Positions 6,001 to 9,000 of a DNA stretch of 64,000 bases are shown here, one piece after another. The position numbers were made by a program. Position 1 is the stretch's first letter. The number at the start of each line of letters is the position of its first letter. The stretch is from Escherichia coli (GTDB taxonomy: Bacteria > Pseudomonadota > Gammaproteobacteria > Enterobacterales > Enterobacteriaceae): assembly GCF_036507355.1 (NCBI RefSeq), contig NZ_AP027877.1; one strand, 5' to 3'.

Positions 6001-9000
6001 AACACGCTTAATAGTATCTTTTTTAGATTCATAGGATGAATTCCTTTTCATAATCCTGATGCGTTGAAAATCACTTTACAATCATTTGTTTTATGAATGA
6101 TCAAGCAAAATAAATTCACGGTGAAAATTTATAATATTTTTAATTGGTCGTTACTGTGAATGTGTTATTCAATGCAGAAATATTTTAGTTTGTTGCCGAT
6201 TATTATATTAATCGCGCGGATTCTAATGATTGGTGTCAATCGATGTCAAATTTTTAAAGGGATAAGATGAGAAAAAGTCAAAGGATAATATTTGTATGGT
6301 GAATGTTTTATAGTGATAAGGACAGTTTGAGTTGGAAAATATAAATAAATAGTTATGATATAAGCATGTTTATGCTGATATTTATAGCTGTAAATTATAT
6401 ATTAATTTTTATTGCGTAGCATATTTTCAGATTTTAACCTGCTAAAATTATTCAGGTGAGTGGGAAGAATTGAAAATATAATGTTAATAGATTTCGATAT
6501 CTGAAATATGCTCCTGCATATGCCAGCAGGAGCGAATAAAAATGAGGAAACTTTAGTTGTATTGACCAGTAGGGGACTTAAAACGCGGTCTTAGAGAATC
6601 CAGTCATCTCTTCCAGGCCCATTTCGCGGCCCAGCGCGGTCATTGGGTGAACAACCACCAGTCCGCGAACACTTTTCTTCAGCTTGCCCATATCAGCCTG
6701 CTCTTTTTTGGTAATTGCGCGCTGAAACGGCATCTTCATCAGCTTCTGTGCTTCTTTACTCAGTTTCTGGCTGTGAACTTCACGCAGGCGGGCAATTTCT
6801 GCTTCCAGCGTGGCTTTCTCTTTTTCCAGCTCGGCATATTTGTCTGCGGCTTCAACCAGCGACAGATCGGCCTGCTGGTGGCGGATGGCGTCCAGACGAT
6901 CGCTGAGACGTTTGATTTCGTTTTTTTCGACTTCTTTCATGTGATGGCTTCTGATAAAGATAAATTTATAGCCCCTAGTATGCGCGACCAGGTGCTTTGT
7001 TCACAACTGATGACATTGCAATAGTTCCGCAACGTAATCATTAATATGCTTAAAAACTACGCAATTTATTGATTAATTAAGAAATCTATAGAAAAAAGAT
7101 AATAAACAGAAGCGGATGATTATTGAGGATTCAGCACGTTTTCCTTAATGTCATCTTTACCGGGAACCTAAACTAAAATTGGCGGCCGCGCATTCCCGGC
7201 GCGGGGTAATACGGAGATATCATCATGGGCAAATTAGGTGAAAACGTTCCGCTTCTTATCGATAAAGCCGTAGATTTCATGGCATCAAGCCAGGCGTTCC
7301 GGGAGTATCTGAAAAAACTTCCTCCCCGTAACGCGATTCCGTCCGGAATACCCGATGAAAGCGTGCCGTTATATCTACAACGTCTGGAGTATTATCGTCG
7401 GCTTTATCGGCCGAAGCAGGTAGAGGGACAGTAAGCAGACGTTGCTTACTTTTGGAAGGCTTTTTTTAAGCTGATTCTGGAAATCAGCTCTGTCAGTGAA
7501 AGGACCATTGTTGATCGCACAGCCTGTTGATAGCGCTGAATTTGCATTGCATACAAACTGGAGTCTGCTGGTTCAAACTGTGGCGGCGGTGGTAACGCCG
7601 CCACGCAGTGCAGTTCACCAAAGGGTCCAAGGATCTCGTCGTCGGTAAAGGCGTACTCGTTGCCGTCGTGATTTAGTTCTTCACGCAATGCCATCAGCAG
7701 CTCCGCATCTTCGTATTCCTGGCGGTTAATGACGCCCAACCCGTAAATGAGTTTTAAACGCACAGAAAGATCGCCCAGCGGACCATCGCCGTCGAGTAAC
7801 GGTTCTACAGCATATTTCACCGCGTAATCGTCTTTGCGGAATACCTGAAGCACCAGAAGATTTACCGCCTCGGTCAGGAGCTCGACGGCGGTGATCAGAA
7901 AGCTTCGCACGGTTTTGCCAGCATTCAGACGCTCAAGCACACGGTTTTCAAAGGCCTGGGTTTGTTCCATTGTTGCCTGCATATCTGACAATCTGTTATT
8001 CGGGCGCAGGGTGTCCTGCGCCTGGTCCACCATTATTGCATTGCTTTATAAGCGGTTACCGCCTCAGATACAACCTCGCTGTTGGCATCAAGCCCGGAAA
8101 TCTGTGCCAGCGCCGCCTGCGGACCTTTGTCGGCGATCAGTGCTGCCAGTTCCTGAGCCTGTGGATCATCTTCACTGCGGAAGTGCATTGCAGCGGCAAT
8201 TCCCTGAATCAGATTTTTGTACGGGAGGCCGTATTCCAGCGTACCGAGTAGTGGCTTGATCAGACGGTCGCCTGCGCTCAGTTTACGCAGCGGCTGACGG
8301 CCTACGCGCTCTACATCATCTTTCAGATACGGGTTCTCAAAACGACCGAGAATTTTCTGGATGTACGCCGCATGCTTGTCAGCGTCAAAGCCGTAATGCT
8401 TGATCAGTACCGCGCCACTTTCTTCCATCGCACCTTTTACCACCGCGCGGATTTTCTCGTCGAGAATAGCGTCACGAATGGTCTGATGACCGGCCAGTTT
8501 TCCGAGGTACGCGGTTATAGCATGACCCGTGTTCAGGGTGAAGAGTTTACGTTCGACAAATGCCATCAGGTTGTCGGTTAACTCCATGCCTGGGATGTTC
8601 GGCAGTGCGCCTTTGAACTGAGTTTTATCGACAATCCATTCGCTGAAGGTTTCTACCGTCACTTCCAGCGGATCGTTAGTTGCAGAAGCCGAAGGCGGTA
8701 CGATGCGGTCAACGGCGGAATCGACAAAGCCAACGTGTTCTTCTACCCACGCTTTGGCGTCTTCCGGCAGGGCGTTCATCACATGGCCTTTCAGTTGCGT
8801 GGTGCCGCGGACCATGTTTTCACAAGCGATGATGTTCAGCGGAGATTCATTACCTTGTTCTTTACGTTTCACCAGCCCTTTGGCGATAGCCGGAGCAATA
8901 CGTTCCAGCACTACCGGGCCAACGGCGGTAGTGACTAAATCAACCTGAGCAATGAGATCAACGACATCATCACCAATGCTGCTGACAGCATTGACGCCAG

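What the first reader, a model, noticed from the sequence alone, without database searches (positions are those of the whole stretch)
6033..6577. 545-bp AT-rich leader upstream of the lipoprotein/adhesin pair
An unusually long, ORF-free, AT-rich stretch precedes the adhesin island and contrasts with the GC-rich adhesin body. Composition like this is typical of horizontally acquired, silenced adhesin loci, but a regulatory role cannot be read from sequence; a small RNA or regulatory element could also lie here.
Basis: inference. Interest (0 to 1): 0.3.

Follow-up and report, generated by a model that had tools for sequence, protein, structure and literature searches.

The report
Promoter region of UpaG/SadA adhesin operon
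The 545-bp AT-rich gap is the ordinary control region of a known E. coli adhesin operon (sadB-like lipoprotein plus UpaG/EhaG/SadA-type adhesin) that published work reports to be silenced by H-NS; in this strain both genes it would control carry frameshifting 11-bp deletions.

Summary
Window 6033-6577 is exactly the gap between the yibL stop and the sadB-like start, both on the minus strand. Its GC is 29% against 50% for the window, it contains the most AT-rich 545-bp stretch in the 64 kb (5977-6521, 27.7% GC), and it has no conserved ORF. The locus is the chromosomal mtl–yibL–[sadB/DUF3251–trimeric autotransporter]–lld site, the same site as upaG in CFT073.

Aligning 14 orthologous gaps from six Escherichia species, Salmonella and Pseudocitrobacter leaves only three conserved islands:
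- a sigma-70 promoter: -35 TTGACA at 6249-6244, 18-bp spacer, -10 TAGAAT at 6225-6220, predicted start near 6213;
- a distal box AATCTGAAAAT at 6433-6423, always 169-183 bp upstream of the -35;
- the ribosome-binding site.

So only about 180 nt is leader. The rest is the yibL 3' hairpin plus an AT-rich, G-poor upstream tract.

There is no Rfam family and no conserved overall RNA fold. H-NS silencing is plausible and is reported for the CFT073 and EHEC alleles, but it was not tested for this allele, which is 68% identical to CFT073's. No high-affinity H-NS motif is present, and predicted curvature is not significant.

"Horizontally acquired" is only partly right. The locus is syntenic across genera, but this allele looks recombined in from another Escherichia lineage.

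Verdict: ordinary, already known in kind, low interest.

The parts
6510..6533 (-). yibL 3' stem-loop: GCTCCTGC, 8-nt loop, GCAGGAGC. It starts 45 nt after the yibL stop and has no U-tract.
   Evidence: Read directly from the sequence. Predicted energy is -15.4 kcal/mol. Every orthologue has a GC-rich hairpin (-8 to -24 kcal/mol) at the same place, built from different sequences. The terminator scan found no canonical intrinsic terminator.
6250..6509 (-). AT-rich, G-poor upstream tract (GC 0.24). Candidate functions are upstream H-NS binding DNA and/or a Rho-utilisation region that insulates sadB from yibL read-through.
   Evidence: GC 0.244. Sense-strand C/G is about 2 and reaches 18 C to 1 G at 6357-6280. 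C exceeds G in all 14 orthologues. There are 17 A/T tracts of 4 nt or more, against 10.9 ± 2.9 in composition-matched shuffles. The functions are inferred.
6423..6433 (-). Conserved distal box AATCTGAAAAT (consensus A-W-T-Y-Y-GAAAA-W). Its binding factor is unknown.
   Evidence: It is one of the three most conserved 10-column stretches in the 14-sequence alignment. It lies 169-183 bp upstream of the -35 in every orthologue, in two groups near 170 and 180 bp. The composite pattern box–N160-180–TTTGAC–N–TAnnAT occurs exactly once in each of the 20 loci that hold the gap. It coincides with the highest predicted bend of the gap, at 6434.
6220..6249 (-). Conserved sigma-70 core promoter of the sadB–adhesin operon: -35 TTGACA (6249-6244), 18-bp spacer, -10 TAGAAT (6225-6220).
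   Evidence: Best promoter-like match in the region, 11 of 12 positions. TTGAC(A/T), a 17-18 bp spacer and TA(A/G)(A/C)AT are present in all 14 orthologues across three genera. These are the other two most conserved blocks.
6033..6213 (-). Predicted 5' UTR of about 180 nt (GC 0.26). It follows the GC-rich discriminator CCGCGCG (6219-6213), with a predicted start at G6213 or A6212. It contains the dyad ATCATT/AATGAT (6101-6081) and the Shine-Dalgarno AGGA (6045-6042), 9 nt before the ATG at 6032.
   Evidence: Predicted UTR length is 157-196 nt in all orthologues. No consensus fold was found (0 pairs), and the MFE z-score is -0.40. The dyad shows a hint of covariation: 6 of 7 pairs have double changes. 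The start site is predicted, not mapped.
5349..6032 (-). sadB-like DUF3251 lipoprotein gene. In this window an 11-bp deletion causes a frameshift, so the ORF ends at 5457 (191 aa instead of 227).
   Evidence: Alignment to the intact gene of O145:H28 RM12581. The intact orthologue matches Salmonella SadB, PDB 4C47, with E = 9e-71.
198..5316 (-). UpaG/EhaG/SadA-type trimeric autotransporter adhesin, split into two ORFs (5316-4546 and 4586-198) by an 11-bp deletion near 4570.
   Evidence: tblastn shows a frame change, -2 then -3. The deletion of GCCAGTGCAGC is visible in the alignment. Pfam finds ESPR and YadA_head in the first ORF, and YadA_stalk, YadA_head and YadA_anchor in the second.
6578..6940 (-). 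yibL (DUF2810, ribosome-associated protein), the co-directional upstream neighbour.
   Evidence: Pfam PF10928, E = 3e-32. RefSeq annotation of identical DNA.

Best explanation
Window 6033-6577 is the control region of the sadBA-type operon (DUF3251 lipoprotein plus UpaG/EhaG/SadA trimeric autotransporter). The operon sits between the mannitol (mtl–yibL) and lactate (lld) genes.

Reading in the direction of transcription (minus strand), the region holds:
1. A GC-rich stem-loop that ends or stabilises the yibL message.
2. About 260 bp of very AT-rich, G-poor DNA carrying one conserved distal box.
3. A conserved sigma-70 promoter with a perfect -35, an over-long 18-bp spacer, a TAGAAT -10 and a GC-rich discriminator.
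4. An AT-rich leader of about 180 nt that ends in the ribosome-binding site.

The proposed mechanism has two inferred steps. First, the promoter is intrinsically competent but sits between two AT-rich lobes that H-NS coats and bridges, so the operon stays silent in ordinary culture until an unidentified signal or anti-silencer relieves it. Second, the G-poor untranslated tract probably lets Rho stop yibL read-through before it reaches the promoter.

Shown here: the coordinates, the composition, the conservation pattern, the promoter motif and the gene identities. Inferred: the transcription start, H-NS occupancy of this allele, and Rho action.

In this strain the circuit is probably vestigial, because both downstream genes are frameshifted.
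For: Locus identity:
- Annotation of identical or orthologous DNA.
- SadB homology to PDB 4C47.
- Autotransporter domains.
- The sadBA operon as described in PMC3953254.

Composition.

Conserved elements: phylogenetic footprinting of 14 gaps from three genera leaves only the -35, the -10, the distal box and the Shine-Dalgarno sequence.

The whole gap belongs to the operon: the K-12 deletion removes it together with sadBA, starting 12 nt after the yibL stop.

Silencing:
- H-NS is listed as a repressor of UpaG (PMC5012682, citing Totsika 2012).
- The Salmonella operon is not expressed in culture.
- Salmonella sadB (STM3690) falls 4.2-fold in a fur mutant in which hns rises 3.1-fold (PMC3212961).

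Rho idea: sense-strand C exceeds G in all orthologues, and the yibL hairpin has no U-tract.
Against: - No site matches the H-NS high-affinity motif at 8/10 or better, and the 7/10 matches are what the composition predicts.
- Predicted curvature is not significantly above composition-matched shuffles (7.5% of shuffles reach it). The wedge parameters were recalled from memory.
- The allele for which H-NS repression is cited (CFT073) is only 68% identical to this one, and the primary paper could not be read.
- No transcription start, ChIP or hns-mutant data for this allele could be found.
- The Salmonella fur result can be explained in other ways. The paper also predicts a Fur site and lists Fnr control.
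Confidence: 0.7

Rival explanations
1. The gap holds a plain promoter that nucleoid proteins do not silence. The AT-richness is just the usual drift of non-coding enterobacterial DNA, and the low expression comes from the weak promoter features (18-bp spacer, GC-rich discriminator) or from a missing activator.
For: No strong H-NS motif was found, and curvature is not significant. The 18-bp spacer is conserved in 13 of 14 orthologues, and the CCGCGCG discriminator is shared by most Escherichia alleles. Salmonella sadB is listed as Fnr- and Fur-dependent, which points to activator control.
Against: GC of 0.24-0.26 over two lobes of 180-250 bp is the extreme of the 64-kb window. H-NS repression of the orthologous upaG is cited in the literature. 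The low GC is kept in all 14 diverged alleles.
Confidence: 0.15
2. The gap encodes an independent small RNA, or a structured cis-regulatory RNA such as a riboswitch or RNA thermometer in the leader.
For: There is a weak STnc50 match at 6057-6136 (25 bits, E = 0.31). A leader dyad at 6101-6081 shows a hint of covariation. Each orthologue has some hairpin 30-70 nt before the Shine-Dalgarno sequence (seen by eye).
Against: The STnc50 score is far below the gathering score of 55, and the family does not match seven orthologous loci, Salmonella included. RNAalifold predicts 0 conserved pairs. The leader folds no better than shuffles (z = -0.40). No terminator-like site lies inside the gap.
Confidence: 0.05
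3. The AT-rich DNA is a scar or remnant of a mobile element that delivered the adhesin island.
For: Low GC. This allele is shared with another Escherichia species at higher identity than the flanking genes are.
Against: The gap has the same position and the same length (480-560 bp) in Escherichia, Salmonella and Pseudocitrobacter. It has no match in phages, and the only matches in the plasmid collection are 4.9-Mb chromosomes filed as plasmids. No terminal or direct repeats of note were found.
Confidence: 0.03

Closest known systems
Regulatory region of upaG (UPEC CFT073) and ehaG (EHEC): the yibL–DUF3251 intergenic region, reported as H-NS repressed (Totsika et al. 2012, AEM 78:2179; known here only through citation)
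   Same: Same chromosomal locus and gene order: mtlR–yibT–yibL–gap–DUF3251–adhesin–lldP. Same -35/-10 promoter, distal box, Shine-Dalgarno sequence and yibL hairpin.
   Different: Sequence identity is only 68%. The window allele is more AT-rich (GC 0.29 against 0.36) and is found in about 1% of complete E. coli genomes: 52 of 5426 at 95% identity or better. Here both downstream genes are frameshifted.
Salmonella sadBA operon (STM3690/STM3691; Grin et al. 2014, PMC3953254)
   Same: Orthologous lipoprotein–adhesin operon at the same mtl/lld position, with a 526-bp AT-rich gap (GC 0.31). It has the same TTGACA / TAGCAT promoter and the same distal box 178 bp upstream. The operon is silent in culture.
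   Different: Outside the conserved blocks the gap cannot be aligned. The spacer is 17 bp, the discriminator is not GC-rich, and there is an extra insert of about 35 bp upstream of the -35.
Other H-NS-silenced AT-rich promoter regions with binding DNA on both sides of the promoter (for example proU; own knowledge)
   Same: Two AT-rich lobes flank a competent sigma-70 promoter, and the leader is long and untranslated.
   Different: No experimentally defined nucleation sites exist here, and no match to the Lang 2007 motif at 8/10 or better was found. The resemblance is by composition only.

Membership tests
sadBA / upaG / ehaG operon control region | Lies between yibL (mtl side) and a DUF3251/SadB lipoprotein gene that is followed by a trimeric autotransporter and lldP | tested here: met
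   RefSeq annotation of DNA identical to the gap and of CFT073 upaG. The same synteny is seen in six further species.
sadBA / upaG / ehaG operon control region | The downstream lipoprotein is a SadB homologue | tested here: met
   The intact orthologue matches PDB 4C47 with E = 9e-71 over residues 23-227. The window copy is truncated by a frameshift.
sadBA / upaG / ehaG operon control region | The downstream adhesin has ESPR, YadA head, stalk and anchor domains | tested here: met
   Pfam hits on the two ORF fragments.
Sigma-70 promoter | -35 and -10 hexamers with a 16-18 bp spacer, conserved in orthologues | tested here: met
   TTGACA–18–TAGAAT, 11 of 12 positions. Conserved in 14 of 14 orthologues.
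Sigma-70 promoter | Mapped transcription start | not testable with these tools
   No TSS data for this locus were found in the literature held.
H-NS (xenogeneic) silenced region | AT content well above the genome average over a few hundred bp | tested here: met
   GC 0.29 against 0.50, the lowest in the window.
H-NS (xenogeneic) silenced region | High-affinity nucleation motif tCGATAAATT (Lang 2007, PMC2094087) | tested here: not met
   No match at 8/10 or better. Nine matches at 7/10, against 7.4 ± 2.6 in composition-matched shuffles.
H-NS (xenogeneic) silenced region | Intrinsic DNA curvature | tested here: inconclusive
   The peak of 0.605 at 6434 is above the 99th percentile of the window, but 7.5% of composition-matched shuffles reach it. 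The peak falls at the distal box in about half of the orthologues. The model parameters were recalled from memory.
H-NS (xenogeneic) silenced region | H-NS occupancy and derepression in an hns mutant | not testable with these tools
   Reported for UpaG only through citation. The primary paper is not held, and the allele tested there is 68% identical to this one.
H-NS (xenogeneic) silenced region | Horizontally acquired DNA | tested here: inconclusive
   The locus is syntenic across three genera, so it is ancestral. However, this allele is 97% identical to Escherichia sp. E1V33, whose mtlR is only 90% identical. E. coli strains with 97.5% identical mtlR have 65-71% identical gaps. This indicates allelic replacement.
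Rfam STnc50 small RNA | Score at or above the family's gathering threshold | tested here: not met
   25.1 bits against 55, E = 0.31. No hit in seven orthologous loci.
Intrinsic (Rho-independent) terminator of yibL | GC-rich stem-loop followed by a U-tract | tested here: not met
   The stem is present (-15.4 kcal/mol), but the tail is AUAUUUCAG and the scan found 0 terminators.
Rho-dependent terminator (rut region) | Untranslated, C-rich and G-poor, weakly structured RNA | tested here: met
   Sense-strand C/G is 1.98 for the gap and up to 18:1 over 78 nt. C exceeds G in all 14 orthologues. Actual termination cannot be tested here.

The most novel reading that the evidence does not exclude
The invariant distal box (A-W-T-Y-Y-GAAAA-W, window 6433-6423) may be an undescribed cis-regulatory site common to all sadBA/upaG/ehaG operons. 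It is held 169-183 bp upstream of the -35 in two classes about one helical turn apart, and it often lies at the strongest predicted bend. It could be a docking site for an anti-silencer or activator, or a fixed bend that nucleates a looped H-NS complex with the leader. Either role could set when this otherwise silent adhesin is made.
Probability: 0.35. Interest if true: 0.3.

Novelty: already known. Interest (0 to 1): 0.15.

Why it matters
UpaG, EhaG and SadA are adhesins and biofilm factors of uropathogenic and enterohaemorrhagic E. coli and of Salmonella. Their natural inducing conditions are still unknown (PMC3953254). A conserved map of the control region tells experimenters where to make reporter fusions and deletions: the promoter, the distal box and the leader of about 180 nt. 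For this window, though, the finding adds little. It is the expected regulatory DNA of a known, reportedly H-NS-repressed operon, and the operon itself appears to be inactivated in this strain.

Tried and rejected
- **Rfam.** Only a sub-threshold STnc50 hit in the window, and nothing in seven orthologous loci.
- **Conserved leader fold.** RNAalifold predicted 0 pairs, and the single-sequence z-score was -0.40.
- **Small proteins.** The 36-aa antisense ORF at 6160-6270 shows similarity across alleles only where it overlaps the conserved promoter DNA. Its length and boundaries are not kept.
- **Mobile-element origin.** No phage match. The 'plasmid' matches are mislabelled chromosomes. No meaningful repeats were found.
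- **Second promoter candidate.** TTCACA–18–TATTAT (6160→6131) is not conserved in other alleles.
- **Factor assignments for the distal box.** These were judged by eye against consensus sequences recalled from memory.
  - Sigma-E: the -10 resembles degP/rpoH P3 TCTGA, but no conserved GAACTT lies 16 nt upstream.
  - RcsB box: the right half TCYNA fits, but the left half is one bp out of register.
  - SlyA: TTAGCAGGTTAA matches 10/12 in E. coli alleles only, and the match is absent in Salmonella.
  - CRP, FNR, CpxR, ArcA, IHF, Fis and sigma-54 gave poor or non-conserved matches.
- **Other site guesses.**
  - The FNR-like TTGACaccaATCAT in the promoter spacer is specific to this allele.
  - The Fur-like reading of the leader dyad has the half-sites in the wrong arrangement.
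- **H-NS motif scan.** No enrichment beyond what the composition predicts.
- **Literature.** Totsika 2012, Raghunathan 2011 and Lucchini 2006 are not held. No TSS or ChIP data for the locus were found.
- **Genome-contig scan.** It returned only 8 loci and missed Salmonella. Orthologues were recovered through exact-protein look-ups instead.
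Full report
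**1. Observation**

Window 6033-6577 is bounded exactly by two minus-strand genes. The first is a 191-aa ORF whose ATG is at 6032-6030. The second is a 120-aa ORF whose stop is at 6580-6578.

GC is 0.29 against 0.50 for the 64-kb window. Only 0.27% of all 545-bp windows are as low, and the window-wide minimum (0.277, at 5977-6521) overlaps this region.

No ORF of 40 aa or more lies inside. The short ones (36 aa or less) are not conserved as ORFs.

- The adhesin is not GC-rich. Its GC of 0.51 is the window average, and sadB is 0.40.
- The AT-rich DNA forms two lobes, 6250-6499 (GC 0.24) and 6033-6212 (GC 0.26). They lie either side of a 37-bp core of GC 0.46.

**2. What the locus is**

DNA 100% identical to the gap occurs in E. 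coli GDSC2227PM. There the neighbours are annotated lldP, YadA-like protein, DUF3251 protein, [gap], yibL, yibT, mtlR, mtlD, mtlA. In CFT073 the same position holds DUF3251 plus the annotated adhesin UpaG.

The gene identities are supported as follows.
- The intact DUF3251 orthologue matches the crystal structure of Salmonella SadB (PDB 4C47, E = 9e-71).
- The adhesin fragments carry ESPR, YadA_head, YadA_stalk and YadA_anchor domains, and yibL is DUF2810.
- Grin et al. (PMC3953254) describe this sadBA operon between the mtl and lld operons. They note that K-12 has lost it and that its native expression conditions are unknown.

In K-12 the deletion starts about 12 nt after the yibL stop and ends in the sequence found downstream of the adhesin, at window position about 130. 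The whole gap therefore travels with the operon.

**3. Comparative anatomy**

I collected the orthologous gaps from these sources:
- five E. coli alleles;
- Escherichia sp. E1V33, E. marmotae, E. ruysiae, E. albertii and E. fergusonii;
- Salmonella enterica;
- two Pseudocitrobacter species.

All are 480-560 bp long with GC 0.29-0.36. Most of the gap cannot be aligned between genera. In a 14-sequence alignment the three most conserved stretches are:
- **(a)** TTTGACA, window 6250-6244;
- **(b)** CATTAnnAT, window 6229-6220;
- **(c)** A-W-T-Y-Y-GAAAA-W, window 6433-6423.

Blocks (a) and (b) form a sigma-70 promoter. It has -35 TTGAC(A/T), an 18-bp spacer (17 bp in Salmonella) and -10 TA(A/G)(A/C)AT in 14 of 14 sequences. 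It is also the best promoter-like match in the local scan, at 11 of 12 positions. This places the predicted start near G6213/A6212 and gives a 5' UTR of about 181 nt here and 157-196 nt elsewhere.

Block (c) lies 169-183 bp upstream of the -35 in every sequence. The distances fall into two groups, 169-171 and 178-183 bp. The composite pattern occurs exactly once in each of the 20 fetched loci that contain the gap, and in none of the others.

Next to yibL, every orthologue has a stable GC-rich hairpin made of a different sequence. None has a U-tract.

**4. RNA-level tests**

- Rfam gives only a sub-threshold STnc50 match in the window (25 bits against 55, E = 0.31). It gives nothing in seven orthologous loci.
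- The aligned leaders have no consensus fold (0 pairs).
- The window leader folds no better than shuffles (z = -0.40).
- One local dyad, ATCATT/AATGAT at 6101-6081, shows a hint of covariation. Six of 7 pairs have double changes, and 71% of cells are paired against 63 ± 2.6% in shuffles. The structure was taken from one of the aligned sequences, so this is a lead and not a result.

**5. H-NS and other mechanisms**

Evidence in favour of H-NS silencing:
- The extreme AT content lies on both sides of a near-consensus promoter.
- Orthologous operons are silent in culture (PMC3953254; PMC5583245).
- UpaG is listed among H-NS-repressed autotransporters (PMC5012682, citing Totsika 2012).
- In Salmonella, sadB (STM3690) falls 4.2-fold in a fur mutant in which hns rises 3.1-fold. 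It is also listed as Fnr-regulated (PMC3212961).

Evidence against, or missing:
- There is no match of 8/10 or better to the tCGATAAATT motif of Lang et al. (PMC2094087). The nine 7/10 matches compare with 7.4 ± 2.6 in composition-matched shuffles.
- A/T tracts are modestly enriched: 17 against 10.9 ± 2.9.
- A wedge-model curvature profile, with parameters recalled from memory, peaks at 6434. That is on the distal box and above the window's 99th percentile, but 7.5% of composition-matched shuffles reach the same mean and maximum. The box is the top predicted bend in about half of the orthologues.
- The CFT073 allele, for which repression is cited, is 68% identical to this one.

H-NS silencing of this allele is therefore a reasonable inference, not a demonstrated fact.

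A further inference concerns Rho. The sense strand of the gap has C exceeding G in all 14 orthologues. The ratio is 1.98 here and reaches 18 C to 1 G at 6357-6280. With the U-less yibL hairpin, this fits Rho-dependent termination of yibL read-through upstream of the sadB promoter.

**6. Horizontal acquisition**

The operon occupies the same site in three genera. It has no link to phages or plasmids and no flanking repeats. It is therefore not a recent island.

Its alleles are nevertheless highly diverged within E. coli:
- The window's gap allele is 95% or more identical in only 52 of 5426 complete genomes.
- It is 60-80% identical in 1826 others.
- About 4148 genomes carry some version of the operon.

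The window's gap and sadB are 97% identical to Escherichia sp. E1V33, whose mtlR is only 90% identical. E. coli strains whose mtlR is 97.5% identical have gaps only 65-71% identical. This is the signature of allelic replacement by recombination.

**7. State of the operon here**

Relative to the intact genes of O145:H28 RM12581, the window has two deletions.
- It lacks 11 bp in sadB, giving a frameshift and 191 aa instead of 227.
- It lacks 11 bp in the adhesin, so the frame changes near 4570.

The control region is intact, but its cargo is probably non-functional, unless these are assembly errors.

**8. Verdict**

The feature is real. It is the ordinary regulatory region of a known adhesin operon that is reported to be H-NS repressed. 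The 'leader', 'small RNA' and 'acquired island' elements are not supported as stated.

The only point not known to me from the literature is the invariant, distance-constrained distal box. It is a modest lead. Interest is low.

Noticed in passing
window about 5460 (sadB) and about 4570 (adhesin): Both genes of the operon carry an 11-bp deletion relative to intact orthologues: TTAATGTCAGA in sadB and GCCAGTGCAGC in the adhesin. Each causes a frameshift. Two deletions of identical length in adjacent genes is an odd coincidence. It could be real pseudogenisation or an assembly artefact.
   Followed up: partly
window 5349-6940 compared with L008 (Escherichia sp. E1V33): The gap and sadB are 97% identical to a different Escherichia species whose mtlR is only 90% identical. 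E. coli strains with 97.5% identical mtlR have 65-71% identical gaps. This indicates inter-species allelic replacement. The lower yibL identity (93-95%) suggests that the tract extends into yibL.
   Followed up: partly
window 1-140 and 6566-6580, compared with L023 5028-5180 (K-12): The K-12 deletion of sadBA runs from about 12 nt after the yibL stop to the sequence just downstream of the adhesin. It removes the whole gap, including the yibL hairpin.
   Followed up: yes
window 58118-58938: This is the only other stretch of the window with GC below 0.33. It maps to the region between yhjX and lpfA1, upstream of the long polar fimbriae operon. It is a second AT-rich adhesin control region.
   Followed up: partly
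window 24287-28707: About 4.4 kb near yiaT / sgb-araD has no counterpart in the otherwise 99% identical strain GDSC2227PM. Its content was not examined.
   Followed up: no
window 6213-6219: A GC-rich discriminator (CCGCGCG) sits between the -10 and the predicted start. It is shared by most Escherichia alleles but not by Salmonella, E. fergusonii or P. corydidari. With the 18-bp spacer it suggests a promoter sensitive to supercoiling or ppGpp (inference).
   Followed up: no
window 6042-6056: Two GGA motifs lie 12 nt apart: AGGAU at 6057-6053 and the Shine-Dalgarno AAGGA. A similar pair is present in E. ruysiae (CAGGGAUGAU…AAGGA) and E. albertii. This could be a CsrA-type binding arrangement. 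It was judged by eye only.
   Followed up: no
L007 (E. coli 24AR0376): In this strain an IS1 and a fimbrial usher/chaperone cluster lie next to yibL in place of sadBA. Only the yibL-proximal roughly 80 bp of the gap is retained.
   Followed up: no
L010, L012, L013: Contigs carrying this Escherichia locus are filed in public MAGs labelled Oscillospiraceae, Collinsella and Bacillota. These are probably binning contaminants.
   Followed up: no
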